Assembly (NCBI GenBank): GCA_964607465.1
Contig: CAZSKS010000007.1
Span: 15,507-79,506, forward strand
Direction of reading: 5' to 3'
Length of the DNA: 64,000 nt
From: an uncultured Gemmatimonadota bacterium
GTDB taxonomy: Bacteria; Gemmatimonadota; Gemmatimonadetes; Palauibacterales; Palauibacteraceae
Part shown: positions 22,463 through 37,239 of the stretch, in pieces
How positions within the stretch are numbered: the stretch's first letter is position 1
Layout: every line of letters begins with the position of its first letter
The notes under the pieces: generated by a model
Database searches by the model: none
What the model was told of the DNA's origin: nothing
The model's input: the letters and a program-made list of their open reading frames with translations, nothing else
Position numbers and translations under genes: made by a program

Positions 22463-22639
22463 GCCGTACGGCGATCCATGCGAAGGCGAGGAAGACGTCG
22501 CACCGACCGTGGACGATCGGCCGACTGGCACGTCTCACCGGATGGACAGGGGATGGACAGGGCGCCGAAGGGAGCAGGGAACGGCGCCGGGAAAAGTGGG
22601 CCGGGCTGGATTTGAACCAGCGGCCTCACGCTTATCAGG
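22463..22639 (-). repeat. Direct repeat copy A: 134-bp arm + 3' 43 nt of tRNA-Ile (distal att-like site)
   Basis: Base-for-base identical to 37031-37207 (offset 14568). The tRNA part is 22597-22639. It lacks the tRNA 5' half. Confidence 0.9.
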
Positions 22640-22932
22640 AACGTGACGGCCCCGGGAATCCTGCATCCTGCAGCACATCCACCGATCGAGCGTGCGATCT
22701 GCCGCGGATTCCCGCCCTGGGGCTGCAGCCTGCAGACGGGCGCTGACAGTACTTGACGGTATTCCCCGGCTCCGTCGTTCGGGCCCAGGTTCGCACTCCC
22801 AGGCGACCGGAACCTCGGTTCGATGTCGGAATCCGAATTTGTTGGGGGGCGCGCGAGCGATCAGGATTACGGTTGACGGGCAAGCGCCGGACCTCATTCC
22901 CATGGCCGCTCATTGCCGCCGGATACTGCACC

Positions 22933-24672
22933 CTACGGCTGACCTGCTTCCTGATGGACGCCTCCGCGCCTGAGGGCCCGGCCCGGAAAGGCGCCGGTAT
23001 GCTCTCCGTCGCGTAGCACCTGTTCCCCGTTCACGAACACATGCTTCACGCCACTGGCGTACTGGTGCGGCTCAGCGTACGTGGCGTGGTCCTGAATCGT
23101 GCCAGAATCGAACACGACGATGTCGGCGAAGCGACCGGGTTGGATGCGTCCGCGATCGGTCAGCTTGAACTGATCCGCAGGCAACGAAGTCATGCGACGG
23201 ATGGCCTCCGGCAGCGACAGAACGCCTTCAACGCGGACGAACTGACCGAGAACGCGAGCGAACGTCCCATAGCCGCGAGGATGGACTCGGGACTCCAGGA
23301 ACCGACCTTCGGCCGCCACCGACGGTTCGTCGGATCCGAAGAACACCCACGGTTGCTCCAGCTTCTTTCGGACGTTTTTCTCGGACATCAGGAAGAAGAC
23401 GGTCTGGACCGGGCTTCTGTCTTCACGGACCAGATCGAGGATCGTGGTTTGGGGGTCCGTGCCCCGCTCTCCCGCGACGTCAGCCAGCGTCCGCCCCTGG
23501 AGCCCCTTCAGCCGCTCCGTGCGGAAGTCGACGAGGAGCACGTCGTCGGGAGTGCCCGACAGCTGGCAGTAGTTCTCCCATTCGTCCTGCTGGCGGCGCA
23601 TATCCGCGATCATTCGACGGCGGGCCTCGGGATCATCGAGCCGTCGATACAGGGAGTCCGGCCCTCCCTCGTGGGCCCAGGGAGGGATACATGCCGACAG
23701 GCCGGTGGAACCCGCCCGGTAGGGATACATCGTGGCTGTCAGGTCCATGCCCCGAGACCTGTGGCTCTCTACCAATGACAGAACGGAGTCCAGCTTCGGC
23801 CAGTTCTGGATTCCAGCTGCCTTGAGATGGTAGATCGTGGCCCCGGCACCCGTTCTGTCCGCAATCTCGAGGAGCTCTCTCACGGCGGGAATCAGGTCGG
23901 CACCCTCGCTCCGAACATGAGAGATATACCGCCCTCCAAGTCTGGCGGCCGACCGCGCCAGGGCGGTTAGCTCACGAGTCGTAGCATAGCTGGCCGGGGC
24001 GTATGCGAGGCGACTTCCGACCCCCAGAGCTCCCGCCTCCATGGCATCTTGCACCAGCTCCCGCATCCGGTCGAGCTCGTCGTCCGTCGGGCGCCGGTCC
24101 TCGTCACCCAGCACATGCTGTCGGATCGTGGTGGCCCCGACGAAGGAGGCAACGTTGGGCGTCACCCCTCGTTCCTCCAGGTGCTCCAGATGCCCCCTCA
24201 GGGTCGTCCAGTCGATGTTGTAGCCCGGAGGCGGATAGTCCCGGTCGGCAGAGGTCTCCAATCGCCGCCGGAGCTCCTCGTTCAAGGGCCCCATCGTAAT
24301 GCCCTCGCCGAACACCTCGGTGGTCACGCCTTGCTTCAGGTCGCTCATCGAGCGACCGTCACGCAACAGGCTGCCTGTCGCCCAGCTGTGAGCGTTGATG
24401 AATCCGGGAGCGACGGCCAGGCCGGAGACGTCGAGGCTCAATGTCCCCCGCGATGGATCGATGTCGCCGACGGCCGCAATCCGATCGCCGTCGATCGCGA
24501 CGTCGACGATCCGCCCCTCGGCCCCCGTCCCGTCGAACACCGTACCTCCGTACAGCACCACATCGAAGACATGATCGCCCTGTGGCTCGCCCGCGCAGCC
24601 GGCGGCAAGCATCGTGGCGAGGAGAAGAGGGACCAAGGGCAACCGTCGGCTGGCGCCGGATCTCACGATCAT
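22933..24672 (-). CDS. N-acyl-D-amino-acid deacylase (D-aminoacylase) family amidohydrolase, lipoprotein
   Basis: 579 aa. Lipobox 'LLLATMLAAGC'. N-terminus 'DVVLYGGTVFDGTG...IAAVGD...APGFINAHSW' is typical of the family. Confidence 0.8.
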   Translation of the reverse strand: MIVRSGASRRLPLVPLLLATMLAAGCAGEPQGDHVFDVVLYGGTVFDGTGAEGRIVDVAIDGDRIAAVGDIDPSRGTLSLDVSGLAVAPGFINAHSWATGSLLRDGRSMSDLKQGVTTEVFGEGITMGPLNEELRRRLETSADRDYPPPGYNIDWTTLRGHLEHLEERGVTPNVASFVGATTIRQHVLGDEDRRPTDDELDRMRELVQDAMEAGALGVGSRLAYAPASYATTRELTALARSAARLGGRYISHVRSEGADLIPAVRELLEIADRTGAGATIYHLKAAGIQNWPKLDSVLSLVESHRSRGMDLTATMYPYRAGSTGLSACIPPWAHEGGPDSLYRRLDDPEARRRMIADMRRQQDEWENYCQLSGTPDDVLLVDFRTERLKGLQGRTLADVAGERGTDPQTTILDLVREDRSPVQTVFFLMSEKNVRKKLEQPWVFFGSDEPSVAAEGRFLESRVHPRGYGTFARVLGQFVRVEGVLSLPEAIRRMTSLPADQFKLTDRGRIQPGRFADIVVFDSGTIQDHATYAEPHQYASGVKHVFVNGEQVLRDGEHTGAFPGRALRRGGVHQEAGQP

Positions 24673-25031
24673 CAGGGAGAGCGGTCGTCGGGATCGTGAG
24701 GACGAAGCGGCATGTCATGGGCCTCGCTCAACGTCGACGTCTTCGTTTTCGGACCAGGGAGCGGGCCGAAGCGTCGACTCGATCGGGAAGCGCGATGACC
24801 AAAACCCCTTCTTCGGTGTCCCTGCGGACCAGTGTCACGGAGGATGGTGGCTTCGAATGGGTCGACTGCAGCCGCCACGAGGACCCGATGCGCTCTTCGA
24901 CCCGCAGGAGCGATCTGGCTGAAGCCAACGAATACCCCGACATGGTCATCGCCCTCGCGATCGGGGAAATTGCCCTGGCGACTCTTCTGGCGAGGAATGA
25001 AGTGCGTGGTCTCGCAGCGGAGAGCCGTCAC
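24672..25031 (-). CDS. Hypothetical 119-codon ORF bridging the operon gap (doubtful)
   Basis: The GTG start overlaps the upstream stop (GTGA). Its TGA overlaps the downstream ATG (TGATG). The product has no recognisable motif and is Arg/Pro-rich. Confidence 0.25.
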   Translation of the reverse strand: MTALRCETTHFIPRQKSRQGNFPDREGDDHVGVFVGFSQIAPAGRRAHRVLVAAAVDPFEATILRDTGPQGHRRRGFGHRASRSSRRFGPLPGPKTKTSTLSEAHDMPLRPHDPDDRSP

Positions 25032-26116
25032 GTTGCGGGCCGGGCTCCCCAGGCTGCGCCGAGAACTCTCTGAACGTTGCCCCCGAGAATCCCCCGCACT
25101 TCGGTGGCGCTGTACCCTCCTGCGTCAAGTAGCTGGGCCAGCCGTTCGAACGTGGGCCCTCGTCCCGTGAGCGGCTCCGGATAGTCGTAGGGCGCACGCG
25201 GCAGCGGATCCGTCTCGAACCGGATCAGGCGCCTGTCGTCGAAGTCGAGGCCGATCCCCACATGCTGAGGGCCAATGCGACCGGCGACATGGTCGACATG
25301 GCGAAGGAGGTCCTCCGACGACGGACGCTGATCGCTCAAGAAGGCTGGAAACGCCGTGACGCAGACGACCCCCCCGGTCTCGCCACAGGCATCGATCTGT
25401 TGATCCGTGAGGTTGCGCGGGTGGTCGTGAACCGCCGAAGCGTTGGAGTGAGTGAAAATGACGGGATGCCGCGACACCGCCATCGCCTCGAGGCTGCTAC
25501 GGCGTCCCACCCGCGACAGGTCGAGGAGGACACCAGCTTCGTTTAGAGACTCCACTGCCATCCGACCGAGCTCCGTCAGCGGCAGGTCACTGGCCTCGAA
25601 ACAACCGTCCCCGTTCCAGTTCTTCCAGGCGTGCGTCAAGGCGATGACGCCGACCCCGGCCGCCCCGAACGTTCGTACGAGATCAAGAGCCTCGACGATC
25701 ATCTCCATGCCCTGAAAGGTCGGGACAACTCCGACGCTTTCTCCGTCCCCGACAAGATCGAGGTCCCCTGGCTCCTTCAGCCAGAGCACGTCCTCGCGTC
25801 CCACCAGCAGCTCACGAAGCCGCAGCAGATTCCGCACGGTCGCCTCGAATCCGTCGATTTCCGCCACCGGCACGAACGCGACGTCCACCCCGCTCCCGAC
25901 GAGCGCGTCGAGGCTCCGGCCCGCCGTCTCCATTCCGCGCGCGGGCGAGGCAAGGGGCACCGCCGTGTTGATCCGAAGCGGTCCGGACACCCCTGAGTCG
26001 CCAACATCTGGATCACGCTGCTCGGCGGTCTCCCACATCGGGCCCAGCAGTCCGCCGGTCGCGAGACCCGTCAGCTGGAGGAACGTGCGGCGAGACAGTC
26101 CGGAAGGCAGGCTCAC
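25028..26116 (-). CDS. M19 (renal dipeptidase)-like protein with a Tat signal
   Basis: ORF 25028..26263. Start placed at GTG 26116 (GTGA overlap). Twin-arginine 'SRRTFLQLTGLATGG'. 'VIFTHSNASAVHDHPRNLTDQQI' and 'GIGLDFDD' are M19-like. Confidence 0.7.
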   Translation of the reverse strand: MSLPSGLSRRTFLQLTGLATGGLLGPMWETAEQRDPDVGDSGVSGPLRINTAVPLASPARGMETAGRSLDALVGSGVDVAFVPVAEIDGFEATVRNLLRLRELLVGREDVLWLKEPGDLDLVGDGESVGVVPTFQGMEMIVEALDLVRTFGAAGVGVIALTHAWKNWNGDGCFEASDLPLTELGRMAVESLNEAGVLLDLSRVGRRSSLEAMAVSRHPVIFTHSNASAVHDHPRNLTDQQIDACGETGGVVCVTAFPAFLSDQRPSSEDLLRHVDHVAGRIGPQHVGIGLDFDDRRLIRFETDPLPRAPYDYPEPLTGRGPTFERLAQLLDAGGYSATEVRGILGGNVQRVLGAAWGARPAT

Positions 26117-27117
26117 TGACTCCACACAGTTTCCCAGACTCGAAGCCAGTTCATGCCCATGATCTTCTCGATCGCCCCGCGGCCGTACCCCCGCTCCATC
26201 AGACCCGCGGTGACGTTGGGAACGTCGGAGAAGTCCGACAGCCCCTCGGGGTAGATCATCCAATCTTCATATCGCTGCGGGTATGCCTCGGGCGGGAACC
26301 GCCTCGGATCGGCCTGACCCGAGATCTCACGACCCAGAATGAAGTCCAGGCCGATACCGACGTGATCGACTCCGACGAGATCGACAGCGTAGTCGACGTG
26401 ATCGAGAAAATCCTCTACCGTGGCTCTGCCCTCGGGCACAAGAAAGAAGTTGAAGGCACAGATGCCCACGACACCGCCCGTGTCCGCGATTGCGCGGAAC
26501 AGGCGATCACTTATTGCTCTCGGGTTGTCGCGAAGGCTTCTCGGATTGGAATGCGTGCATACCACCGGGCCATCGTACGCTTCGATGGCATCCAGCGAGG
26601 TGGCTTCGCTCGCGTGCCCACCCACGTCGAGCACGATCCCGAGCTCGTCGAGGGCCTCGACGACGGTGTGTCCAAACCGGCTGAGCGGACCCTGATGAGG
26701 ATCGACAGACCCGGATCCTGCATAGTTGCCTACGTTATAGACGAGTCCGCAGCTTCGAAGCCCCATCCGATGGAAGCCAACCAGCCGTGAGACCTCCTGC
26801 TCGAGATAGTCCACCCGTTGCCAGTTGAAGACGAGGGAGGGAACGCCCTCCCGGCGACCCCGCTCGAGATCCGACGTCGTCCGGGCATGGACTACGCTTT
26901 CCGGGTGCTCCTCCACGAAGTGGAGGTGAGGAGAGCCCACCGAGCTAACCGGGCGCTCGCCGCCCCTCAGGCCCCCGGTCAAGTTGACGTCGACCCCCCC
27001 CGCTTCCAGCCCGCGCAGGAGTTGCTCGTTCACCTCCGATCCGTCCATGCCGTTCACGACGAACAGTTCGTCGTGTAGGGCCCGTGCCTCCCTCTGGAGA
27101 CCCGGATCGTCGATCAC
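26113..27117 (-). CDS. M19 (renal dipeptidase)-like protein, cytoplasmic
   Basis: 334 aa. 'VVCTHSNPRSLRDNPRAISDRLFRAIADTGGVVGI' and 'GIGLDF'. The GTG start overlaps the upstream stop (GTGA). Confidence 0.75.
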   Translation of the reverse strand: MIDDPGLQREARALHDELFVVNGMDGSEVNEQLLRGLEAGGVDVNLTGGLRGGERPVSSVGSPHLHFVEEHPESVVHARTTSDLERGRREGVPSLVFNWQRVDYLEQEVSRLVGFHRMGLRSCGLVYNVGNYAGSGSVDPHQGPLSRFGHTVVEALDELGIVLDVGGHASEATSLDAIEAYDGPVVCTHSNPRSLRDNPRAISDRLFRAIADTGGVVGICAFNFFLVPEGRATVEDFLDHVDYAVDLVGVDHVGIGLDFILGREISGQADPRRFPPEAYPQRYEDWMIYPEGLSDFSDVPNVTAGLMERGYGRGAIEKIMGMNWLRVWETVWSQ

Positions 27118-28166
27118 CGGCGTTCCTCCGCGAGCCTGCTGGCCTCCCTTTCGCTCGTCACCGACGGCTCCTCGAGAAGGAAGCCATCCGCCAGGGGATC
27201 GCCGTCAGCCGTTATCCACTCATGGACTCCGGTGATGTAGGCGGATCCGCTGAGAGCGACGTCGTATCCGTCCTCCCCCGTGCGGGCCTCCGCGGTCAGG
27301 GTAAACGCGAGACCGGCCGGACCTACCGCCCGAACCTCGTCGCCCGCCGCGAATTCGCCGCGGTCCAGCAAGCCCGCCAGCAGTGAAGAGCTCCCCGTCC
27401 CGCACGGCGAGCGGTCGATTTGTGTCTGGCTGAAGAAGATTGCTGTCTGGATCGTGTCCGTGGCATCGGGCCGCCACCAGAAGGCCACCTCGAGGTCTTC
27501 GGTCAATCCATCCCCCGCCGAGCTGAGGACCTCATCGCGGAGGCGAGCACCCGTCCTACGGATTCGTCCGGGGGCTACGTCGGCGAGGTCCGGCAAGCCG
27601 GCGCTTCCCGACTCCACGACGAGGTAGGTGTTGCCACAGGTCGCCAGGAACGCGTCCACCTCTGGATGGCTGTCGAAGCGGACGCTTGCGCGAAGGGTCC
27701 GGGCCGGCGGCATGGAGAGCGTCGCCGACACCTCGTCCTGTGAACTCCGGAGCCCGATCACCTTCGTCCGGGTACCGTCGGGGTTGTCGATGTCGAAGGG
27801 CACCGACGGATCGAGCCCCCGGCGGCATTGTACGGCCAAGCTGCACAACGTCGCGTGGCCACAACCGTCGAGATAGCCATTCGTATCAAAAAAGATCAGG
27901 CCGAACGCGCTCTCCGGCCTCGCCGGCGGCGTGAGCATCGCCCCGAACATGTCCCGATGACCCCGCGGTTCGCGACACAGGGAGCGTCGAACTCCGTCGA
28001 AGTGGCGGCGGAAATGGGCACGCCGCGCCTCCATGGTGTCGCCGCGCAGAACGATCTCCGAATCAACGATCACTCGGCACGGTTCCCCTGCTGCGTGGGC
28101 ATCGATCGTAGAGACCGCGGCTGTGCCGGCCGGGGCGGCTGAAGTCGGCTCGGGAGTACCCGCCAT
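27114..28166 (-). CDS. Proline racemase / 4-hydroxyproline 2-epimerase family enzyme (Cys/Cys type)
   Basis: 350 aa. 'TIDAHAAGEPCRVI'; first catalytic Cys in 'LDGCGHAT'; second in 'DRSPCGTGSS'. Confidence 0.85.
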   Translation of the reverse strand: MAGTPEPTSAAPAGTAAVSTIDAHAAGEPCRVIVDSEIVLRGDTMEARRAHFRRHFDGVRRSLCREPRGHRDMFGAMLTPPARPESAFGLIFFDTNGYLDGCGHATLCSLAVQCRRGLDPSVPFDIDNPDGTRTKVIGLRSSQDEVSATLSMPPARTLRASVRFDSHPEVDAFLATCGNTYLVVESGSAGLPDLADVAPGRIRRTGARLRDEVLSSAGDGLTEDLEVAFWWRPDATDTIQTAIFFSQTQIDRSPCGTGSSSLLAGLLDRGEFAAGDEVRAVGPAGLAFTLTAEARTGEDGYDVALSGSAYITGVHEWITADGDPLADGFLLEEPSVTSEREASRLAEERR

Positions 28167-28170
28167 GTCT

Positions 28171-29949: not shown

Positions 29950-30036
29950 GGGGAACCTCTGCAGATCCGAGGGAGCGCAGCCGGTCGATGATGACGATCG
30001 CAACGGCCGCCCGCTCAGGAAGTGTTGGGAGTGGTA

Positions 30037-31287
30037 TCAAGTGCTGGGATTGTTGTTCGTCTCCGCGTCCGGCAGCGGCAGGCACGTCGTATTGCCGTAG
30101 GGCTGACCCTTGTGGTTCTCCCCGGTGGCGAACGGGATCTCGAAACGAAGCATGTCGTTCAGCCGGTGTGACTGAAGGTAGAGTTCCCGCCGTCGCTCCT
30201 CTATGACTTGTTGCTGGATCTCCTCGGAATCGCTGCTCGAGAAGGTCGGGAGGTCCTCCTTGAGTCTTAGGCGATTGATAGCATCGACGGCGTCCTGCCC
30301 CCCCTCCGCCTCGGCAATGATGAGCTGAGCTTCGTCCCAGGTGGCGATCGGTATCGGGGTGTCTACCGTCGGATAGAGGCCCTGGAACCACAGGGGAGTA
30401 ATCCCGTCCTGGCCCAAGCGATCCTGGTCGATGGTGGGCACGCGAACGTCAGGTTCACCCTGCACCTCGAGGTTTCGGAAGCTTGGATCGACGGTCACTT
30501 GAATGTTCCGGACGTTGAGCACGAAGACAGTATTCTCTCGCCGGTCGGTGGTGGCTGAGTAGGTGGCGTTCTTGACGAAGTCTTCCGTCACTTCCCCGGC
30601 GTCCGCGGCCGCCCCGGAGTCATTGCCGAGGTTGAGCCTCACCCGAGCTCTCCCGACGCGAGCCATGTCCAGAATCTCCGAGTTGTTCGCCTGCGCGGCC
30701 AGGTCGATGGCCGCGGTGAACCGATCCTCGGCCATGCTCAGCACCTCGGTCGGCGCCAGGACAGGTCCGACGTCGACAGTAACGCTGCAGAAGCCCTCCC
30801 CGAGAAGCGTCAGAGAATAGCCCTCGTAGGCGGCCGCAGTCGCGAGAAGGGAGGTCTTGTCGGGGACCTCGGCGTCAGGAAATCCGTCGATCTTCCGAAA
30901 CGCCTCGCTGGCTTGCCATCGCGCCGTTTGGAGGGGCTGCCACACACCGAACCAGTCACCCCCGTTGCAGCCATTCGTGCCCAGGAGATCGTTGTCGGGG
31001 GTGATGCGTCGCAGGTCCCAGTTCGTGGGAGCCACGAAGGCCGTGGCGATGAGCAACTCGTCGGTGAAGAGTCCCGTCGCCAGCGTGTAGTTCGCGAACG
31101 CGCACTCGAAGTCCGCGATGGCGCTGTTGACGAGAATCTCTGCCTGTCCCGGGTCCGTTAGCGATTCGGCCTCGACCCTCGTCGGACGTTCGACGTCGAG
31201 GAGCGAGTCGCAGGCTGCGGCGCCCGTGAATACCAGGACTGCCAGGACGACGGCGGACTCGAATCGGTGGCTGCTGTGACCCGTCAT
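30037..31287 (-). CDS. SusD/RagB-family outer-membrane lipoprotein
   Basis: Lipobox 'VFTGAAAC'. C-terminal 'EERRRELYLQSHRLNDMLRF' is SusD-like. Lies directly downstream of the SusC-like gene. Confidence 0.8.
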   Translation of the reverse strand: MTGHSSHRFESAVVLAVLVFTGAAACDSLLDVERPTRVEAESLTDPGQAEILVNSAIADFECAFANYTLATGLFTDELLIATAFVAPTNWDLRRITPDNDLLGTNGCNGGDWFGVWQPLQTARWQASEAFRKIDGFPDAEVPDKTSLLATAAAYEGYSLTLLGEGFCSVTVDVGPVLAPTEVLSMAEDRFTAAIDLAAQANNSEILDMARVGRARVRLNLGNDSGAAADAGEVTEDFVKNATYSATTDRRENTVFVLNVRNIQVTVDPSFRNLEVQGEPDVRVPTIDQDRLGQDGITPLWFQGLYPTVDTPIPIATWDEAQLIIAEAEGGQDAVDAINRLRLKEDLPTFSSSDSEEIQQQVIEERRRELYLQSHRLNDMLRFEIPFATGENHKGQPYGNTTCLPLPDAETNNNPST

Positions 31288-31358
31288 CTTCCTACTCCCC
31301 TACCCTGTCAATGTCTGGTCTGAGCGACCGAAGCAGTGCCAACGAACAGCACGCGGCA

Positions 31359-34300
31359 TCAAAAGGTCACGCTCACTGTGGCGAAGAACTGTGTCATCTG
31401 CGGCAGAACGGTCTGCACGTATCCGCTGAGCTCGCTGCTGGTGAGACGCACCTCGGGGTCCATCACCGGACGACCGTAGATTTCGTCCGTTGCCTGCCAA
31501 AGCGTGGCGAGGTTACGGCCGGAAACCGTCAGCCTCGCGCGCTCCGCCCCTAACCGCGCGATCCAACTCTCGGGCAGCACGTAGCTCAGCGATATTTCAC
31601 GGAGCTTCGCAAATCCTGCGTCCATGAAGCCGGCTACGCGCCACATGTTCATCGCATCGTAGGCGGCCAGGAATGGGTCCTTGTCTCCGGTCTTCTGGAT
31701 CTCCCGCGAGTTCCGGAGGAGGACGTGGGCGGCACCCACGTCACCGTTGAGCAGGTGGTGGCCGTCCTCGTAGTCGACGAGCCCGTAGACCTGGAATCGG
31801 TCGAGGAAGTTCACCGTCGTGCTGATGGAGGAAGTCCACGTGGGGTATGGCACGCCGTTGAAGACATCCGGGGCGTCGACGCAGGCAACTGATCCTCCAC
31901 CTTCCGGCCCGCCGTCGCACTGCATCTCAGTGACGTTACCGTCGCCGTCCACCGCAGCGTCCACGACCCGTCGGAAGAAGAAGGCACCCACCGGAAAGCC
32001 CTCGCGGTGCGCCTGCCGAGCTCCGACCGAGACGGGCGGGAGACCCCCGAGATCCGTGACCTCGTTGTCGTTGTGCGACAGCGTGAAGCCAAGTTGCCAG
32101 TCCACCCGATCGGCCTGGATAACGGTTCCGTCCAGCCCGAGCTCGAATCCACTTCCCTCGACAGTGCCGAGGTTCACGAACTGCGAACCACTGAAGCCCG
32201 AGGAGGGCGCGACGCCACGCTGGACGATTGCGTCATCCGTCGTCCGGTCGAAGTACGTGAATTGAATCCCGAGCCTGTCCTCCAGAAGGCCGGCGTCGAA
32301 TCCTGCCTCGATCTCCTTGCCCACCTCCGGTTGCAGGTCGGGATTCCCGATGTTGGACGGCGTCACCGTCGAGGTCCCGCCAGGTCCGGACGTCGGCGTG
32401 AACAGCTGCACGGCCGCGAACACGTCGGGCTGCTGGCCTGACTCTCCGTAGGCGGCGCGGACCCGCAGAGCGTTGACCAGCGGTACCTCGAACCACGGCT
32501 CCTCATGCACCACCCACGTGCCGCTCAACTTCGGATAGGTGACGAAGTCGAAGTTCTCACCGAATGCGCTATTGTCGTCCCCGCGAAGCGCCCCCGTGAC
32601 GAAGATCCGGTTCTTCCATGACAGCCGTTCCTGGACGAAGATTCCGAGGGTCTTGTTCTCGAGGAAGTCCTCGCCCCCGAACGTTGTCGCCGCACCGCCG
32701 ACGCTCTCGACGCCCGGAATCGGGAAGACGCGGCCTTCGGCGGTCGTGATCTCCGTCTGCTTCGAGATCATCTGGCCTCCGACCGACGTCTCCGAGGCGA
32801 TGTCTTGCGTCACGTCGAAGGAGGCCGTGGCGGCGTAGTCCACGGTCGTGAAAGTCGCCTTCAGTCGCTCAAGCTCCTTGTTGCCGAGGCTGAGGTCTCC
32901 GAAGAAGAACGACGCGCCGTCCGGGTGGCGGGGGAACAGGATCGAATTCGTCTCGTCACCGACATCGACCCCGACGTTGAGCCGATGGCGCAACCACTCC
33001 GTCGGACGATGCTGCAAGTTCAGGCCGCCGATGAAGCGGTCGATCCTGGCCCGTGAATCGATGGTCGACACGGCCTCCGGGGTCGCGCGCAGGAAGCCCC
33101 GGGTGGCTGTCTCGGCCTGGTTCGGTGACCCCCAGACGATCTGACCAATAATGTCCCATCCGTCCGCAGCCTGTCCCAACCTCGTTTCGTTACGAAGCGC
33201 GCTGAAATTGGCATTGACGTTGAAGTCTTCGCTCATCTGGTAGGAAAGATTGAGCCGGCCGTTGATGCGCTTGCGCCAGTTGTAGTCGAGCATTCCGGTT
33301 TCGTCGTCGAGACCGGCCGAGAGATAGTAGCTCAGCCCGTCGGCAGATCCGCCGTGGAGGGACCCGTTAAAGGACTGCGCGTGGCCCGTCGTGAAGATGG
33401 GGTTGCCCTCCGCCTCCGCCCTGGCGACGAGATCCAGACTCAAGAGCTCGCCCGTGTCTGGATCCAAGGCGTAGTTGGTGGGCAGGCGCTCATCGGGGTT
33501 CGACAGCCAATTCGCCCCCTGCTTGACGCGGAGGTTGAATTGAGGGGTTCCCTCCGAGCCCTTCTTGGTGATGATTTGGATGACCCCGTTCGACGCCTCC
33601 GTCCCGTACAGCGTCGAAGCCGCCGGTCCCTTGATGACCTCAATGCTCTCGATGCTCTCCGGGGAAATGTCGTTGATACGAGAGACCTGCTGTCCCCCCC
33701 GGATCGAGGGCCCGGATCGCGGCTCATTATTGATCCGAACTCCATCGATGTAGATGAGCGGCTCGTTCGTCAGGGAGAGAGTGGAGAGACCTCGAACCCT
33801 CGTGACCCCCCCTGTCCCCAGATTCCCTGAGCCAGGTTGGATCGCCACACCCGCCACCTTGCCGGCCAGAAGCCCCTGGATGTCCTGCGGACTCCCCTTC
33901 TCCACGGCGTCGGACGCGTCGACATTGGCCACCGAGTTTCCGATCGCGCGGGACTGAGTCTCCCCTGGCGTGCCGGTGACGACCAGCTCCTCCAGCTGTA
34001 CCGCTCTCTGTGGCAGCGTGATCCTAAGGTCGGTCGTTCCGACGGCAACGGCTCGCTCGACCGGACGGTGACCGATCAGCTGAACCCTGACGGTAACCTG
34101 CGGTCCCGACACATTCTCAATCCGAAAACGACCACGGGAATCCGTAACTGCACCGAGGTCAGTCCCGAGAATTGTGACCTGGGCACCGTTGAGGGGCTGG
34201 GCCGACTGGGCCGACTGGACGGTTCCCGCAATCGGGCCAGCCTGCTGGGCTTCGAGGGGCGCGCCCTTCCCAAACCAGATCGTCAAGAAGAAAAGGGCCA

Positions 34301-34397
34301 CACCGCCAACAGCGGCGCGCACACCAGGAGACCGGCACGTGTCTTCGCTACTTCCAGCCTCGCCGACGCCGAAGGCAATCCTTTTAGCTGAGCCCAT
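31359..34397 (-). CDS. SusC/RagA-family TonB-dependent outer-membrane transporter
   Basis: 1012 aa. CarboxypepD_reg-like N-terminus 'GTVQSAQSAQPLNGAQVTILGTDLGAVTDSRGRFRI'. Plug 'IESIEVIKGPAASTLYGTEASNGVIQIITKKG'. Ends '...VSVTF'. Confidence 0.9.
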   Translation of the reverse strand: MGSAKRIAFGVGEAGSSEDTCRSPGVRAAVGGVALFFLTIWFGKGAPLEAQQAGPIAGTVQSAQSAQPLNGAQVTILGTDLGAVTDSRGRFRIENVSGPQVTVRVQLIGHRPVERAVAVGTTDLRITLPQRAVQLEELVVTGTPGETQSRAIGNSVANVDASDAVEKGSPQDIQGLLAGKVAGVAIQPGSGNLGTGGVTRVRGLSTLSLTNEPLIYIDGVRINNEPRSGPSIRGGQQVSRINDISPESIESIEVIKGPAASTLYGTEASNGVIQIITKKGSEGTPQFNLRVKQGANWLSNPDERLPTNYALDPDTGELLSLDLVARAEAEGNPIFTTGHAQSFNGSLHGGSADGLSYYLSAGLDDETGMLDYNWRKRINGRLNLSYQMSEDFNVNANFSALRNETRLGQAADGWDIIGQIVWGSPNQAETATRGFLRATPEAVSTIDSRARIDRFIGGLNLQHRPTEWLRHRLNVGVDVGDETNSILFPRHPDGASFFFGDLSLGNKELERLKATFTTVDYAATASFDVTQDIASETSVGGQMISKQTEITTAEGRVFPIPGVESVGGAATTFGGEDFLENKTLGIFVQERLSWKNRIFVTGALRGDDNSAFGENFDFVTYPKLSGTWVVHEEPWFEVPLVNALRVRAAYGESGQQPDVFAAVQLFTPTSGPGGTSTVTPSNIGNPDLQPEVGKEIEAGFDAGLLEDRLGIQFTYFDRTTDDAIVQRGVAPSSGFSGSQFVNLGTVEGSGFELGLDGTVIQADRVDWQLGFTLSHNDNEVTDLGGLPPVSVGARQAHREGFPVGAFFFRRVVDAAVDGDGNVTEMQCDGGPEGGGSVACVDAPDVFNGVPYPTWTSSISTTVNFLDRFQVYGLVDYEDGHHLLNGDVGAAHVLLRNSREIQKTGDKDPFLAAYDAMNMWRVAGFMDAGFAKLREISLSYVLPESWIARLGAERARLTVSGRNLATLWQATDEIYGRPVMDPEVRLTSSELSGYVQTVLPQMTQFFATVSVTF

Positions 34398-34685
34398 CCT
34401 GCTCCCCTGCGGTTCGAAATGAGCGTCCCCGTTGGCACACCCAAACGGAAGCGTGCGAACGACCGCGACGAGCCGCGGCTACCAAGACGACGCCGCTCGG
34501 ATCTACTTCCCTTCCTTCATAGTCCAGACAGCGTACATGGCGGAATCGGAGTCGAGGGATTGTGTCCACCCGCAAAGTGAGATCTTCTCCGAAGGCTTCC
34601 CGGCGAACCCTCGCCCCGTGCAGCTGCTGGTCCCTCGGAGAAGCTCGGAGGGAACCACGCGAGCAACTACGTGTATCGTAGGCGT

Positions 34686-34701
34686 ATTTCGTATCCGAAA
34701 T
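34686..34701 (+). promoter_or_regulatory. Candidate operator site 1 (ATTTCG-TATC-CGAAAT)
   Basis: Palindromic 16-mer in the susC/gntR divergent region. Shares an exact 13-mer with site 2. Confidence 0.4.
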
Positions 34702-34842
34702 CTCGCATGTTGGATCGAGAGTACGGTAGATCGCTGCCGATGTCAAGTTCGGCAATGCGTTGTCTGCTGAGCCGAACCTAGCCAAGTTCCCGTACCGTGG
34801 GAGCGACCAGCAGCTTCGGGGGAGAAGGTGCGGAGAGAGACA

Positions 34843-34855
34843 TCGGATACGAAAT
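34843..34855 (-). promoter_or_regulatory. Candidate operator site 2 (ATTTCGTATCCGA on the minus strand)
   Basis: Exact inverted copy of 34686-34698, 144 bp away from it and about 155 bp upstream of the GntR start. Confidence 0.4.
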
Positions 34856-35009
34856 CGGAGATCCTGGGCGAGGCTGAACTACGTACTGCGATGCCGTAGA
34901 TTGCTGGAGCAGGTAGACGCCACCGAGGCACGAGCGAGGGAACCGTCCTATCCGGACGTTGATCGGGGAATCCGCTGGACGTGGGGCAACCCCTTAAAGG
35001 AGTAGTTAC

Positions 35010-35693
35010 ATGCCGCAACTCAACCGGCCGGTGCCGTTCCGCGACCAGCTGCGCGACATCATCCTCGACCAGATTCACTCCGGTGAACTCGAGGCTGGCG
35101 CCAGCATCAATCTGAACGAGCTCGCGAACGACATCGGTGTGAGCAAGACACCCGTCCGGGAGGCCCTTCTCCACCTCGAGGCCGAGAAGTTGGTGACAAG
35201 CCGCCCAGGTAGAGGTTTCTTCGTGCCACCACTTCTGGCGAGCGAAGCGAAGGAGATCTACAGAGCGATAGGGGCTGTCGAGTCAGCCGCACTCCGCCTT
35301 TGTGGCGCTCCCCCCAACAAGGTGTTCGACGAACTGGACGACCTTACGAGAGAGCGCATGGAAGCCCGAGACGACGCATTGCGGAACGTGGAACTCGACG
35401 GACGCTGGCACGAGATCCTGCTGTCACACGTTGACAACCTGCCGCTTCTCGAAACGCTGAGTCACCTGAAGAACCGGATGTTGCGCTACGAGATCACGTA
35501 CATGTACAGCCCTGAGCGTATTGACGTGGCCGTGGAAGACCACTGGGAGATCATGGAAGCGCTCAAGGCTGAGCGTGTCAACGATGCAGCAACGATTCTG
35601 CAGACGCACTGGTCACGGGCGGCCACCCTCCTCGGCCCCGAGTTCGACGACGAAGAGGAAGCGTCAGAGCTCGCCACCGGCTTCAGAGACTGA
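35010..35693 (+). CDS. GntR family regulator, FadR (FCD) subfamily
   Basis: 227 aa. wHTH 'LNELANDIGVSKTPVREALLHLEAEKLVTSRPGRGFFV'. All-helical C-terminal FCD-like domain. Confidence 0.85.
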   Translation: MPQLNRPVPFRDQLRDIILDQIHSGELEAGASINLNELANDIGVSKTPVREALLHLEAEKLVTSRPGRGFFVPPLLASEAKEIYRAIGAVESAALRLCGAPPNKVFDELDDLTRERMEARDDALRNVELDGRWHEILLSHVDNLPLLETLSHLKNRMLRYEITYMYSPERIDVAVEDHWEIMEALKAERVNDAATILQTHWSRAATLLGPEFDDEEEASELATGFRD

Positions 35694-35704
35694 ATCCGTG
35701 AGGC

Positions 35705-36613
35705 TCACCGTCCCAGCATAGCCCGGAGAACGAAGCGCATGTTCGCTGGTCGCTCGGCGATCCGTCGCATCATGTACGGAAACCAGTCCGAGCCGAACGG
35801 CACGTATATTCGCACCGGATGTCCCTCCCCCAGGAGCTTGTCCTGAAGCTTCCGGTTGATTCCATATAGCATTTGAAACTCCAGCTCCTGTCCGGTTGCT
35901 CCGTTCGATGACGCGTAGTCGAGCGTGGCGGCGACCATTTCCTCGTCATGTGTGGCAATCGCCGTCGGAGCACCAGCGTCGAGAAGATTCCTCATCAGCA
36001 CGACGAAATTTTCGTCCACCTGCTCCTTGTCCTGGAATGCGAGCTCCTTCGGCTCGTCGTACGCGCCTTTCACCAGACGCACGGGAGCATTCGATCGGAT
36101 CAGATCAGCGACGTCTCGTCGGCTGCGACGCAGGTACGACTGAATCGCGACACCCACGTTCTTGAAGTCGGCGAACACAGAACGGAAGATGCGAAGCGTC
36201 GGCTCCGTATAAGCGCTCCCCTCCATATCGACTTCGACAAAGTTGTCTTTCTGATCAGCCTTGCCAACCACTCTCCGAAGGTTTGCTTCAGCCAGAGCCG
36301 CGTCGAAGCCAAGTCCCAGCTGTGTGAGCTTCACCGAAATCGTGGCATCCAGGCTCTCGTCATCCACGACTTCGATGCACCTGCGGTAGTCTCCGGCAGC
36401 ATCAAGCGCTCCCGCCACCCCTTCGACCTCTTCCCCGAGATGGTCGAGCGTCACAGAGAATCCCCTCGCGTTGAGCGACCGGGTCACTTCTACGGCATCC
36501 GCCAGCGTCTCGCCGGCTGCAAACCGGTGCGCGAATTTCTGAGCCGGGGTCCAACCGGTCGCCAGGTCCCGCATCCAGGCTCGCCGGGCCAGCCAGAGGA
36601 TCAACTTGCGCAT
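35705..36613 (-). CDS. Proline dehydrogenase (monofunctional PutA-like)
   Basis: ORF 35705..36712. Start placed at ATG 36613 ('MRKLILWLARRAW', typical PRODH N-terminus); alternative ATG at 36661. 'VRLVKGAYDEP' motif. Confidence 0.8.
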   Translation of the reverse strand: MRKLILWLARRAWMRDLATGWTPAQKFAHRFAAGETLADAVEVTRSLNARGFSVTLDHLGEEVEGVAGALDAAGDYRRCIEVVDDESLDATISVKLTQLGLGFDAALAEANLRRVVGKADQKDNFVEVDMEGSAYTEPTLRIFRSVFADFKNVGVAIQSYLRRSRRDVADLIRSNAPVRLVKGAYDEPKELAFQDKEQVDENFVVLMRNLLDAGAPTAIATHDEEMVAATLDYASSNGATGQELEFQMLYGINRKLQDKLLGEGHPVRIYVPFGSDWFPYMMRRIAERPANMRFVLRAMLGR

Positions 36614-36686
36614 ACTCGACGCACTCCCGCTGAAGAGTTGCTCGTGCTCGCGTGTCCTCATCGACCTTGAGGATATCGAACACTGA

Positions 36687-36702
36687 ATATCAGATACGAA
36701 GC
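36687..36702 (-). promoter_or_regulatory. Candidate operator site 3 (GCTTCGTATCTGATAT on the minus strand)
   Basis: Matches site 1 at 12/16 positions (TTCGTATC.GA.AT). Lies 26-74 nt upstream of the proline dehydrogenase start. Confidence 0.35.

Positions 36703-37030: not shown

Positions 37031-37239
<209 letters not shown>

What the first reader, a model, noticed from the sequence alone, without database searches (positions are those of the whole stretch)
22933..36613. Island cargo: a SusC/SusD-led operon that looks built for proline or D-amino-acid peptide catabolism
Seven or eight minus-strand genes are tightly packed, with GTGA and 4-nt junctions. In order they are SusC, SusD, a secreted S15 X-Pro-type peptidase and a Cys/Cys proline racemase or hydroxyproline epimerase. 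These are followed by a cytoplasmic M19-like dipeptidase, a Tat-exported M19-like dipeptidase and a lipoprotein D-aminoacylase-family enzyme. A proline dehydrogenase and a divergent GntR/FadR regulator complete the island. There is no glycoside hydrolase, so this is a peptide locus rather than a glycan locus. The predicted locations suggest a pathway. SusCD would take up the peptide, and Pro-specific and D-residue-tolerant hydrolases would cleave it in the periplasm. Racemisation of D-Pro or epimerisation of Hyp would then happen in the cytoplasm, followed by oxidation by PRODH. M19 enzymes and D-aminoacylases are both known to accept D-configured residues. I am not aware of a described SusCD locus with this enzyme set, and here it sits on a putative mobile island.
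Basis: inference. Interest (0 to 1): 0.7.

Follow-up and report, generated by a model that had tools for sequence, protein, structure and literature searches.

The report
Mobile SusCD proline-peptide catabolic island
A 14.4-kb foreign DNA island in a marine Gemmatimonadota genome carries one self-contained outer-membrane uptake and breakdown module, probably for small proline-containing peptides that may include D-amino acids, built around an uncharacterised racemase and an unusual pair of dipeptidase-like proteins.

Summary
All the family assignments survive HMM search, the genes are tightly packed on the minus strand, and no glycoside hydrolase is present.

Several labels needed correction:
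- The "S15 X-Pro peptidase" is a CocE/NonD-type serine hydrolase. Its closest solved relative is cocaine esterase, not PepX.
- Neither "M19 dipeptidase" has the binuclear zinc site. M19A keeps a conserved Gln-His-His-Asp set. M19B is a degenerate paralogue that always carries a twin-arginine signal.
- The D-aminoacylase homologue lacks two of that enzyme's metal ligands.
- The 119-aa "eighth gene" is probably not a gene.

New findings:
- The locus is exactly the cargo of a 14.4-kb island. It has 63% GC against 69-75% in the flanks, lies between perfect 177-nt direct repeats containing the 3' half of tRNA-Ile, and has no integrase.
- SusC-SusD-(S15)-racemase-M19A-M19B recurs in nine other loci with 43-71% GC.
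- The racemase belongs to a small Cys/Cys clade with a proline-racemase-type Phe at the discriminating position.

My best reading is that this is a mobile, GntR-controlled SusCD module that imports and degrades small proline-containing, possibly D-residue-containing, peptides. The substrate is inferred, not shown.

The parts
22463..22639 (.). Left direct repeat (attR-like): a copy of the 3' 44 nt of tRNA-Ile, from the anticodon loop onward, plus about 133 nt of tRNA-downstream sequence
   Evidence: Exact 177-nt identity with 37031-37207. A 34-nt tRNA fragment occurs exactly twice in the window, where 0 are expected by chance.
22933..24672 (-). D-aminoacylase-family amidohydrolase, predicted lipoprotein (…MLAAGC). 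Ligands His67, His220, His250 and Asp366 are kept. His69 is replaced by Trp. Cys96 is absent and a Glu (FGE-GI) sits beside the gap. There is a roughly 65-aa insert.
   Evidence: PF07969. E=5e-80 to A. faecalis D-aminoacylase 1m7j/1rjp. NF006560 scores 240 bits against a cut-off of 340. The motifs are conserved in the L002 and L003 orthologues.
24673..25027 (-). 355-nt spacer. The 119-aa ORF in it is probably not a gene.
   Evidence: GC3 0.63 against 0.75-0.80 in neighbouring genes, and no Pfam or NCBIfam hit. It is found only in L001, the near-identical contig.
25028..26125 (-). M19B: a Tat-signal-bearing, degenerate M19-fold paralogue (pseudo-dipeptidase)
   Evidence: PF01244, E=3.5e-64. Best PDB match is 2i5g. 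An RR motif is present in all 10 orthologues, while the positions of Glu125, His198, His219 and Arg230 are variable or lost.
26113..27117 (-). M19A: an M19-fold protein without a signal peptide. The HxD motif is absent. Gln replaces the bridging Glu125. His198, His219, Arg230 and Asp288 are invariant.
   Evidence: PF01244, E=1e-69. Best PDB match is 2i5g over the full length, E=7e-41. Residue table over 10 orthologues.
27114..28166 (-). Proline-racemase-superfamily enzyme with a Cys102/Cys255 pair and no signal peptide. It belongs to a small distinct clade with the motifs DGCGH and IDNPDG.
   Evidence: PF05544. All NCBIfam equivalog models score far below their cut-offs. The clade comprises about 17 clusters at 90% identity at 39% identity or more, then drops to 37% or less. 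The R1 position is Phe74 in the alignment to TcPRAC, read with PMC1964878.
28171..29949 (-). Secreted CocE/NonD-family (S15) serine hydrolase. The Ser-Asp-His triad and the oxyanion Tyr are conserved.
   Evidence: TIGR00976 414 bits. PepX models score 55 bits or less against cut-offs above 640. E=1e-93 to cocaine esterase, with GxSYxG, GWxDG and PWxH aligned. Sec signal …SASA|QQQ.
30037..31287 (-). Short, divergent SusD/RagB-family lipoprotein (416 aa)
   Evidence: PF07980 32.9 bits against 23.1. Lipobox GAAAC. It is 44-92% identical across nine loci. Only weak similarity to solved SusD structures.
31359..34397 (-). SusC/RagA-type TonB-dependent transporter (carboxypeptidase-regulatory-like domain, plug and barrel)
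   Evidence: TIGR04056 408 bits against 368; Pfam domains. Best PDB hits are BT_2264, a SusC homologue and RagA.
34398..35009 (.). Divergent control region. It holds a promoter-like TTGACA-N17-TACTCT site, followed by the palindrome TTTCGGATACGAAA (34687-34700) and a weaker copy at 34841-34854. These are candidate GntR operators.
   Evidence: Two matches where 0.15 are expected, both in this region. Related palindromes lie at the same place in L002 and L003.
35010..35693 (+). GntR-family regulator with an FCD (FadR-type) ligand domain
   Evidence: PF00392 and PF07729. A GntR/FCD gene flanks SusC in L002, L003, L089, L091 and L095.
35705..36661 (-). Monofunctional proline dehydrogenase
   Evidence: PF01619, E=1.6e-37. 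NF045947 (Thermus-type) 271 bits, below its cut-off of 500. It is present only in the three most closely related loci.
37031..37207 (.). Right direct repeat (attL-like), overlapping the 3' part of the intact tRNA-Ile gene
37164..37239 (-). tRNA-Ile(GAT). Its 3' end faces the island.
   Evidence: ARAGORN; Rfam RF00005, 74 bits

Best explanation
The finding is a self-contained, horizontally acquired nutrient-utilisation module. It is the sole cargo of a 14.4-kb island inserted at tRNA-Ile in a marine Gemmatimonadota genome.

Proposed mechanism:
1. A GntR/FCD repressor controls two divergent promoters. This step is inferred from the gene layout and the candidate operator palindromes.
2. SusC and SusD import a small peptide or peptide-like compound across the outer membrane. 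Family membership is shown; the substrate is inferred.
3. In the periplasm, a CocE/NonD-type serine hydrolase trims the compound, together with a D-aminoacylase-family lipoprotein. In other versions of the module a beta-lactamase-fold serine hydrolase takes the lipoprotein's place. The signals and catalytic residues are shown; the activities are inferred.
4. An invariant trio then finishes the job.
   - M19A has a reduced Gln-His-His-Asp site. It probably works as a heteromer with M19B, a catalytically dead paralogue that carries the Tat signal.
   - M19B may carry the signal-less M19A into the periplasm. It may also act as a PvdM-like peptide-holding subunit.
   - The pair releases proline.
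   - A Cys/Cys proline-racemase-type enzyme converts D-Pro, or a close proline analogue, to the L form.
   - PRODH oxidises L-Pro.

The substrate class I think most likely is small proline-containing peptides with D-configured residues. Examples are fragments of non-ribosomal peptides or epimerised cyclic or linear Xaa-Pro dipeptides from marine dissolved organic matter.
For: Family assignments and catalytic residues:
-.

Predicted locations, consistent across up to ten orthologous loci:
- Sec signal on S15.
- Lipoboxes on SusD and the amidohydrolase.
- RR motif on every M19B.
- No signal on any M19A or ProR-like protein.

Synteny:
- ProR-like, M19A and M19B are adjacent in all 10 SusCD-type loci (the window plus nine others) and in the Longimicrobiales locus.
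- SusC-SusD lies directly upstream wherever sequence is available.
- Cross-locus identities are high for a SusD: 44-92% for SusD and 48-90% for M19A, across loci of 43-71% GC.

M19A/M19B partnership:
- The genes overlap (13 nt here, 4 nt elsewhere).
- A is invariant at Q125, H198, H219, R230 and D288, while B varies at all of these positions.
- In the Longimicrobiales locus, which lacks a B-type gene, every A-like copy carries its own RR signal.
- There is a precedent for non-hydrolytic periplasmic M19 relatives linked to TonB-dependent receptors, proposed to handle D- and L-amino-acid peptides (PvdM, PMC9305348).

Proline as the end product:
- The racemase has Phe at discriminator R1, the proline-racemase state rather than the Val/Ser of hydroxyproline epimerases (and PMC1964878).
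- A profile of the clade scores highest against true proline racemases.
- PRODH is linked in the three closest loci.

D-residue theme:
- The accessory genes in other loci belong to families known for D-stereospecific amide hydrolysis or epimerisation. These are PF00144(+DUF3471), class-A beta-lactamase fold, D-aminoacylase family, MR_MLE, M20 and M14.

Regulation:
- Operator-like palindromes are confined to the divergent intergenic region.

Precedent:
- SusCD-type peptide import is established for RagAB (bioRxiv 10.1101/755678, listed).
Against: - No substrate is shown, and every enzymatic step is inferred from family membership.
- D-proline is rare in nature.
- The locus has no inner-membrane transporter and no P5C dehydrogenase.
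- PRODH is linked only in the three closest loci. S15 is missing in three loci. One genome has S15-M19A-M19B without the racemase or SusCD. The pathway as drawn is therefore not obligatory.
- M19A lacks three of the five canonical zinc ligands, so hydrolytic activity is uncertain. Its closest solved relative, 2i5g, has no known function and is probably PA5396 of the dimethylglycine operon.
- The racemase deviates from proline racemases at Met129 (Gly here) and at discriminator R2 (about Glu). It also carries three extra invariant Cys residues, so its substrate may not be proline itself.
- The A/B heteromer and Tat hitchhiking are purely comparative inferences.
Confidence: 0.45

Rival explanations
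1. The module targets hydroxyproline-rich peptides, such as collagen or algal and diatom hydroxyproline-rich glycoprotein fragments. The racemase-family enzyme would be a hydroxyproline 2-epimerase, and the PRODH would act as a hydroxyproline or proline dehydrogenase.
For: - The best-scoring NCBIfam model is a 4-hydroxyproline epimerase (NF010578, 146 bits).
- Position R2 appears to hold a polar Glu where epimerases have a His that binds the 4-OH group (PMC1964878).
- Met129 is replaced by Gly, which would enlarge the pocket.
- The source environments are marine (TARA mesopelagic members).
Against: - The NF010578 score is far below its cut-off of 376.
- R1 is an invariant Phe. According to PMC1964878 this restricts access of hydroxyproline, and epimerases have Val or Ser there.
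- The clade profile matches proline racemases better than 4-hydroxyproline epimerases (210-183 bits against 168-139 bits).
- None of the ten loci contains the canonical downstream genes: D-hydroxyproline dehydrogenase, Pyr4H2C deaminase or KGSA dehydrogenase.
Confidence: 0.15
2. The M19 pair is entirely non-hydrolytic, like PvdM. The module would then take up, hold and process a specific non-ribosomal peptide or siderophore-like compound delivered by the TonB-dependent transporter, rather than carry out general peptide catabolism.
For: - M19B has lost the zinc ligands and is periplasmic (Tat signal).
- The genes sit next to a TonB-dependent receptor, which is exactly the association described for PvdM homologues (PMC9305348).
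- The accessory hydrolases have D-peptide affinities.
Against: - M19A keeps an invariant Q/H/H/R/D constellation, which argues for catalysis. hrDP E125Q is reported as the only tolerated exchange at that position.
- Both proteins are closer to 2i5g than to PvdM 3b40.
- A SusD lid, PRODH and a GntR/FCD regulator point to nutrient catabolism.
- No iron-related genes are present in the loci examined.
Confidence: 0.15
3. The module scavenges or detoxifies D-Ala-D-Ala-like compounds. These could be peptidoglycan stem-peptide fragments or beta-lactams, whose hydrolysis products are proline analogues (thiazolidine or pyrroline carboxylates).
For: Every hydrolase family present has members that act on such compounds:
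- S15 alpha-amino-acid ester hydrolases.
- M19 renal dipeptidase, which hydrolyses carbapenems (family knowledge, not tested here).
- PF00144 and class-A beta-lactamase folds in L087-L091 and L095.
- The D-aminoacylase family.

An M14 carboxypeptidase occurs in L092 and L006, and an MR_MLE enzyme in L006.
Against: - Peptidoglycan peptides contain no proline.
- The beta-lactam link is a recalled family-level resemblance only.
- The racemase pocket keeps the hydrophobic residues of proline racemases (Phe74, Leu99, Phe245).
- There are no muropeptide-specific genes such as amidases or an AmpG-like permease.
Confidence: 0.1
4. The genes are unrelated neighbours, or the island is an assembly artefact. 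In that case there is no functional module.
For: - The repeat-bounded segment matches an independently assembled 14.1-kb contig (L001), which ends inside or near the repeats. Repeats of this kind can cause misjoins.
Against: - The same gene order occurs in nine other loci from different samples and with different base composition.
- Start and stop codons overlap.
- L001 is 99.986% identical over the whole island.
- The tRNA half-copy at the left repeat is the classical footprint of integration, not of a chimera.
Confidence: 0.03

Closest known systems
RagAB of Porphyromonas gingivalis, and SusCD complexes generally
   Same: - A SusC/RagA-type TonB-dependent barrel (TIGR04056 above its cut-off) is paired with a SusD/RagB-family lipoprotein encoded directly downstream.
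- No CAZymes are present.
- Peptide import by such a pair is established for RagAB (bioRxiv 10.1101/755678).
   Different: - The host is Gemmatimonadota, not Bacteroidota.
- The SusD is short (416 aa) and only weakly similar to any solved SusD or RagB.
- The transporter is embedded in an operon with a fixed, unusual enzyme set.
- The whole unit lies on a tRNA-bounded island.
PvdM-type non-hydrolytic M19-related proteins (PMC9305348)
   Same: - M19 fold with an inactivated zinc site.
- Exported to the periplasm.
- Genetically linked to a TonB-dependent receptor.
- Proposed to bind or hand over D- and L-amino-acid peptides. M19B fits all of these points.
   Different: - Here there is a fixed pair: M19A with a conserved reduced site and M19B, which is degenerate.
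- Export is by a Tat signal rather than a membrane anchor.
- The partner enzymes are a racemase and hydrolases rather than oxidases.
- Both proteins are closer in sequence to 2i5g than to PvdM 3b40.
Proline racemases (TcPRAC, clostridial ProR, AsProR 7pb3)
   Same: - PF05544 fold.
- Cys/Cys catalytic pair in the CGH and DRSPCGTG motifs.
- Phe at discriminator R1.
- Leu127 and Phe290 equivalents conserved.
- These are the best profile matches in the PDB.
   Different: - Only about 35% identical.
- MCGH is GCGH here.
- ETPAG is replaced by the invariant IDNPDG.
- R2 is approximately Glu.
- Three extra invariant Cys residues.
- All NCBIfam equivalog models score far below their cut-offs.
- The genomic context (SusCD plus M19 pair) does not appear in the 2014 genome-neighbourhood survey of the superfamily: a term search of PMC4113996 for 'M19' and 'dipeptidase' found nothing.
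PDB 2i5g, a P. aeruginosa 'amidohydrolase' (probably PA5396 of the dgc operon)
   Same: - Closest solved relative of both M19A (E=7e-41, full length) and M19B.
- It shares the loss of the HxD motif and the replacement of the bridging Glu by Gln.
   Different: - About 35% identity.
- Its function is unknown.
- Its context is dimethylglycine catabolism (PMC13492115) rather than SusCD.
- The identification of 2i5g with PA5396 rests on my memory plus matching length (978 bp, 325 aa).
tRNA-integrated genomic islands, including integrase-less cis-mobilisable elements (CIMEs)
   Same: - Located at the 3' end of a tRNA gene.
- Flanked by direct repeats that include the tRNA 3' part.
- Deviating GC and GC3.
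- A single coherent cargo module.
   Different: - There is no integrase, excisionase or transfer gene between the repeats.
- The repeat is unusually long (177 nt) and extends about 133 nt beyond the tRNA.
- This fits RecA-mediated gain or loss, or mobilisation in trans, as well as it fits site-specific recombination.

Membership tests
SusC/RagA TonB-dependent transporters | Match to TIGR04056 above the curated cut-off; carboxypeptidase-regulatory-like N-domain, plug and 22-strand barrel | tested here: met
   408.4 bits against 368.25; PF13715, PF07715 and PF00593 all hit
SusD/RagB lipoproteins | PF07980 above the gathering score, a lipoprotein signal, and a position directly downstream of susC | tested here: met
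   32.9 bits against 23.1; lipobox GAAAC; 71-nt gap after SusC
SusD/RagB lipoproteins | TPR-rich all-helical SusD fold | not tested
Sequence similarity to solved SusD structures is only E=0.0017.
Polysaccharide utilisation locus (PUL) | SusCD pair co-localised with carbohydrate-active enzymes | tested here: not met
   None of the genes between the repeats gives a GH, PL or CE Pfam hit
Proline racemase superfamily (PF05544) | Pfam match over the full length, and two catalytic residues in the CGH and DRSPxGTG motifs | tested here: met
   169 bits; Cys102 and Cys255 are invariant in 13 clade members
Proline racemase proper (equivalog NF010576; PRAC signature of PMC1964878) | Equivalog score above the cut-off; MCGH motif; R1 Phe; R2 Cys or Leu | tested here: inconclusive
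   139.8 bits against a cut-off of 556. The motif is GCGH, not MCGH. R1 is Phe74 (met). R2 is approximately Glu, though the alignment is uncertain there.
4-hydroxyproline 2-epimerase | Equivalog score above the cut-off; R1 Val or Ser; R2 His | tested here: not met
   146 bits against a cut-off of 376; R1 is Phe; R2 is not His (PMC1964878)
trans-3-hydroxy-L-proline dehydratase | Thr in place of the second catalytic Cys | tested here: not met
   DRSPCGTG with an invariant Cys
Peptidase M19 (membrane/renal dipeptidase) | PF01244 fold match | tested here: met
   235 and 217 bits
Peptidase M19 (membrane/renal dipeptidase) | Binuclear zinc ligands His20, Asp22, Glu125, His198 and His219 | tested here: not met
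   M19A keeps only His198 and His219, and Glu125 is Gln. M19B keeps none of them consistently across 10 orthologues.
PvdM-type non-hydrolytic M19 relatives | Inactivated zinc site, periplasmic location, linkage to a TonB-dependent receptor | tested here: met
   M19B: ligands lost, RR signal in 10 of 10 orthologues, three to four genes from SusC. By sequence, however, it is closer to 2i5g (E=6e-30) than to PvdM 3b40 (E=3e-17).
N-acyl-D-amino-acid deacylase (D-aminoacylase) | Sequence relationship to characterised members | tested here: met
   E=5e-80 to 1m7j/1rjp
N-acyl-D-amino-acid deacylase (D-aminoacylase) | Metal ligands His67, His69, Cys96, His220, His250 and Asp366 | tested here: not met
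   His69 is Trp. Cys96 falls in a gap next to a Glu. The other four are conserved. NF006560 scores 240 bits against a cut-off of 340.
Xaa-Pro dipeptidyl-peptidase (PepX, S15) | PepX subfamily models above the cut-off | tested here: not met
   NF003780 scores 55 bits against 642, matching the C-terminal domain only
CocE/NonD hydrolases (S15) | TIGR00976 above the cut-off; Ser-Asp-His triad | tested here: met
   414 bits against 66; the triad and the oxyanion Tyr align with CocE
tRNA-integrated genomic island | tRNA 3'-end insertion with flanking direct repeats and deviating composition | tested here: met
   177-nt exact repeats; island GC 63.4% against 69-75% in the flanks; GC3 0.75-0.80 against more than 0.9
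tRNA-integrated genomic island | Own integrase or recombinase | tested here: not met
   All ORFs between the repeats are accounted for, and none is a recombinase

The most novel reading that the evidence does not exclude
The invariant trio could be a new enzymatic system. M19A and M19B would form an active/pseudo-enzyme heterodimer that reaches the periplasm by Tat hitchhiking and opens or hydrolyses a proline-containing substrate that ordinary peptidases cannot handle. Candidate substrates are D-Pro dipeptides or Pro-diketopiperazines. The racemase clade (GCGH, IDNPDG, three extra invariant Cys) would have a specificity not yet described in the proline racemase superfamily. The whole SusCD-fed pathway would then spread as a plug-in island among marine Gemmatimonadota and other phyla.
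Probability: 0.2. Interest if true: 0.75.

Novelty: new variant of a known kind. Interest (0 to 1): 0.6.

Why it matters
SusCD systems are studied almost entirely as glycan importers of Bacteroidota, and peptide import is documented essentially only for RagAB.

This locus is a compact non-glycan SusCD module outside Bacteroidota. It is conserved across genomes of 43-71% GC and is caught here as a discrete island. It therefore offers a tractable system in which transporter specificity, regulation and a complete downstream pathway could be reconstituted from about 14 kb of DNA.

It also supplies three testable enzymology questions:
- What does a new Cys/Cys clade of the proline racemase superfamily act on?
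- What is the chemistry of M19-fold proteins that keep only a Gln-His-His-Asp site? This is the 2i5g/PA5396 type, whose function is still unknown.
- Does a dead paralogue with a Tat signal ferry its active partner into the periplasm?

If the substrate does include D-residue or proline-rich peptides, the module would bear on how marine bacteria turn over the D-amino-acid-rich fraction of dissolved organic nitrogen.

Tried and rejected
- **Genome-collection scan.** Only one clade member came back, from a Longimicrobiales MAG, so no taxonomic census was possible.
- **Metagenome-collection scan.** A clade-specific GCGH-N63-IDNPD pattern found one true member and three chance hits. The clade is rare in that collection.
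- **BipA contig coincidence.** I suspected that the L002 contig also carried BipA, because both contigs are 17,924 bp long. It is a different contig, so there is no evidence of conserved chromosomal position.
- **Plasmid search.** Searches with the racemase and M19A found nothing above 34% identity. One annotated 2i5g-like neighbourhood (an ABC amino-acid transporter) was uninformative.
- **The 119-aa and 122-aa ORFs.** I rejected both (24672-25031 and 22535-22903) as genes, on composition, lack of homologues and overlap with the repeat.
- **Longimicrobiales locus.** I first took it for a planctomycete locus because of the neighbouring PSD2/HXXSHH genes. The record title corrected this.
- **Rfam.** The only match in the window is the tRNA.
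- **Literature.** No paper links SusD with proline racemase, and none cites 2i5g.

Full report
**Observation**

On the minus strand:
- SusC/RagA-type transporter, 31359-34397. TIGR04056 scores 408 bits against a cut-off of 368.
- SusD/RagB-family lipoprotein, 30037-31287. PF07980 scores 32.9 bits against 23.1.
- S15 hydrolase, 28171-29949.
- Pro_racemase-family protein, 27114-28166.
- Two Peptidase_M19-fold proteins, 26113-27117 and 25028-26125.
- Amidohydro_3 protein, 22933-24672.

Beyond a 612-nt divergent region lie a GntR/FCD regulator (35010-35693, +) and a proline dehydrogenase (35705-36661, -).

The junctions are tight. There is a 4-nt gap between S15 and the racemase, a GTGA overlap between the racemase and M19A, and a 13-nt overlap between M19A and M19B.

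The ORF that would make an eighth gene (24672-25031) is probably not a gene. Its GC3 is 0.63, against 0.75-0.80 in its neighbours. It has no family hit and is absent from all non-identical loci.

No carbohydrate-active enzyme is present.

**Corrections to the labels**

1. *The S15 protein is a CocE/NonD hydrolase.*
   - TIGR00976 scores 414 bits.
   - Its closest solved relative is cocaine esterase (E=1e-93), with the Ser-Asp-His triad and the oxyanion Tyr aligned.
   - The Xaa-Pro dipeptidyl-peptidase (PepX) models score 55 bits or less against cut-offs above 640.
   - X-Pro specificity is therefore not supported.

2. *Neither M19 protein is a canonical dipeptidase.*
   - The closest solved structure for both is 2i5g, a P. 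aeruginosa "amidohydrolase" of unknown function.
   - I believe 2i5g is PA5396 of the dimethylglycine operon. The length matches the 978 bp given in PMC13492115, but the identification is otherwise from memory.
   - The zinc ligands of human renal dipeptidase are His20, Asp22, Glu125, His198 and His219, as listed in PMC9305348.
   - Across ten orthologous loci, M19A always lacks the HxD motif and has Gln for the bridging Glu125. It keeps His198, His219, Arg230 and Asp288 invariant.
   - M19B varies or has lost the residues at all of these positions.

3. *The amidohydrolase is a clear relative of A. faecalis D-aminoacylase, but its metal site differs.*
   - The match is E=5e-80.
   - It has Trp for His69, and a gap next to a conserved Glu where Cys96 should be.
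   - His67, His220, His250 and Asp366 are conserved.
   - From general knowledge of the amidohydrolase superfamily, a Glu/His/His single-metal site, as in E. coli NagA, is compatible with catalysis.

**The racemase**

- It has the Cys/Cys pair, so it is a racemase or epimerase rather than a dehydratase.
- It belongs to a small, isolated clade. About 17 clusters at 90% identity, among 5.8 billion in the database, reach 39% identity or more. The rest of the superfamily is at 37% or less.
- Clade-invariant features are GCGH instead of MCGH, IDNPDG instead of ETPAG, and three extra Cys residues.
- All NCBIfam equivalog models score far below their cut-offs.
- In the profile alignment to TcPRAC, discriminator R1 (Phe102) corresponds to the invariant Phe74. 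Proline racemases have Phe here and hydroxyproline epimerases have Val or Ser.
- Discriminator R2 aligns, less securely, with a Glu. That is neither the racemase state (Cys or Leu) nor the epimerase state (His) (PMC1964878).
- The clade profile scores best against true proline racemases (210-183 bits) and lower against 4-hydroxyproline epimerases (168-139 bits).
- I read it as a proline-racemase-like enzyme of unproven specificity.

**Conservation elsewhere**

Neighbourhoods of clade members and of M19A orthologues gave nine further SusCD-type loci besides the window (L001 is the window's own island): L002, L003, L006, L087/L088, L089, L091, L092 and L095.

- All of them share the order SusC, SusD, optional S15, ProR-like, M19A, M19B. 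Usually a GntR/FCD gene lies upstream and one more exported hydrolase lies downstream.
- The extra hydrolase varies:
  - D-aminoacylase-like in the window, L002, L003 and L006.
  - PF00144 beta-lactamase fold, with or without DUF3471, in L087/88, L089 and L091.
  - Class-A beta-lactamase fold in L095.
- M14, M20 and MR_MLE genes are also present in L006 and L092.
- PRODH is linked only in the three closest loci.
- A Longimicrobiales MAG has the racemase next to five or six tandem A-like M19 genes and no SusCD.
- One genome has S15-M19A-M19B without the racemase or SusCD.
- The loci span 43-71% GC. Even so, SusD stays 44-92% identical and M19A 48-90% identical. That is unusually high for a SusD and suggests one specific ligand and horizontal spread.

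**Protein locations**

The predicted locations are consistent across all loci:
- Sec signals on S15 and the PF00144 proteins.
- Lipoboxes on SusD and the amidohydrolase.
- A twin-arginine motif on every M19B.
- No signal on any M19A or racemase.

In the Longimicrobiales locus, which has no B-type gene, every A-like copy has its own RR signal. Together with the overlapping A/B genes and the conserved-versus-degenerate residue pattern, this leads me to propose an A/B heteromer. The dead subunit would supply the Tat signal, and perhaps a peptide-holding surface. This is inference only.

The concept has a precedent. PvdM is a non-hydrolytic M19 relative with an inactivated zinc site. It is periplasmic and genetically tied to TonB-dependent receptors. 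It is proposed to hand over D- and L-amino-acid peptides (PMC9305348).

**The island**

- Perfect 177-nt direct repeats lie at 22463-22639 and 37031-37207. They bracket exactly the stretch from the amidohydrolase to PRODH.
- The right copy overlaps the 3' 44 nt of an intact tRNA-Ile(GAT) gene (37164-37239, -). The left copy is a tRNA half-copy.
- The 14.4 kb between the repeats has 63.4% GC and GC3 of 0.75-0.80. The flanks have 69-75% GC and GC3 above 0.9.
- There is no integrase or transfer gene inside.
- An independent 14.1-kb contig (L001) matches window 22960-37060 with two mismatches.
- L002 carries the same module at about 84% nucleotide identity, in a different context and with the amidohydrolase inverted.
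- Two other versions of the module are flanked by transposases.
The mechanism is open: an integrase acting in trans, or homologous recombination across the long repeats.

**Host and context**

- TypA/BipA next to the island is 75% identical to a Candidatus Palauibacterales protein. Its other named relatives are Gemmatimonadota or "marine benthic group".
- Members of the racemase clade occur in TARA mesopelagic samples.
- The same window has a second SusC/SusD pair, of host-like composition, followed by an M28 peptidase. SusCD-plus-peptidase loci are therefore native to this genome.

**Regulation**

- The divergent region has a TTGACA-N17-TACTCT promoter-like site. It is followed by the palindrome TTTCGGATACGAAA (34687-34700), and a weaker copy lies at 34841-34854.
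- These are the only two matches in the window, where 0.15 are expected by chance.
- Related palindromes lie at the same place in L002 and L003.
- This fits a GntR/FadR-type repressor that controls the operon and its own gene.

**Interpretation**

What is shown:
- Family membership and residue patterns.
- Export signals.
- Synteny across ten loci.
- The island boundaries.

What is inferred:
- The imported compound is a small peptide or peptide-like molecule.
- The periplasmic hydrolases and the M19A/B pair release proline.
- The racemase converts D-Pro to L-Pro for PRODH.

The D-residue idea is strengthened only circumstantially, by the accessory families that replace one another in different loci.

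Weak points:
- D-Pro is rare in nature.
- No inner-membrane transporter is linked to the locus.
- The activity of M19A is uncertain.
- The racemase deviates from proline racemases at several pocket positions.

The rivals are listed with their tests: hydroxyproline-rich peptides, a PvdM-like non-catabolic role, and D-Ala-D-Ala, muropeptide or beta-lactam-type substrates.

**Novelty**

SusCD-type peptide import is known from RagAB (bioRxiv 10.1101/755678). From memory, the BT2263/2264 complex was crystallised with a bound peptide.

I found no description of this enzyme set with SusCD. No paper in the library holds both "SusD" and "proline racemase". A term search of the 2014 genome-neighbourhood study of the superfamily found no mention of M19 or dipeptidase.

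I rate it a new variant of a known kind of system, with two uncharacterised protein clades at its core.

Noticed in passing
window 55679-61954 (-): A second SusC-like gene (58787-61954) and SusD-like gene (57397-58776) are followed by an M28 peptidase (55679-57328). All three have host-like GC3. SusCD-plus-peptidase loci therefore seem native to this Gemmatimonadota genome.
   Followed up: partly
window 28171-29949 and 31359-34397; orthologues in L003, L006 and L091: Predicted signal-peptide cleavage leaves an N-terminal Gln (S15 …ASA|QQQ, SusC …EA|QQ, orthologues …A|QQ). This resembles the Bacteroidota 'Q-rule' described in PMC10653852, but here in Gemmatimonadota proteins.
   Followed up: no
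window 27114-28166 (protein positions C30, C108, C177): Besides the catalytic pair, three further cysteines are invariant across the 13 aligned members of the racemase clade. Canonical proline racemases have Thr or Ala, or other residues, at these positions. This may be a metal or disulfide site.
   Followed up: no
window 14001-22459: A stretch of intermediate composition (69% GC) lies left of the island. It holds two DinB-family genes, a HAD-hydrolase/PhzF fusion (17693-19453), a PLP-dependent decarboxylase (19454-20992) and a MocR-type GntR-aminotransferase regulator (21042-22430). It may be an older acquisition.
   Followed up: no
L004/L005 (= L007, Longimicrobiales MAG) about 7.6-17.2 kb: A tandem array of five or six M19 genes alternates between two paralogue types (379 aa and 395 aa). 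Each carries an RR signal. The array lies next to the racemase-clade gene and is interrupted or flanked by IS (rve) transposases. The two assemblies differ by an IS insertion in one M19 copy.
   Followed up: partly
L094 8217-12941: S15-M19A-M19B, with the S15 stop overlapping the M19A start, plus an alpha/beta hydrolase. There is no racemase or SusCD, in a 4.6-Mb contig. This suggests that S15 plus the M19 pair is itself a functional sub-unit.
   Followed up: no
L095 (NCBI MAG labelled Dehalococcoidia): A complete SusC-SusD-racemase-M19A-M19B module, with a third RR-signal M19 gene, a FecR_C fragment and flanking transposases, sits in a MAG labelled as a phylum not expected to have an outer membrane. 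This may be a binning error or a sign of mobility.
   Followed up: no
window 34687-34700 and 34841-34854: The palindrome TTTCGGATACGAAA and a weaker copy are the only two matches in 64 kb. Both lie in the GntR/SusC intergenic region, and related palindromes occupy the same place in L002 and L003. These are candidate operators.
   Followed up: partly
window 22960 / L001 end / L002 13216: The independent contig L001 and the nucleotide similarity to L002 both stop at window position 22960, which is 27 nt inside the 3' end of the amidohydrolase gene. I have no explanation.
   Followed up: no
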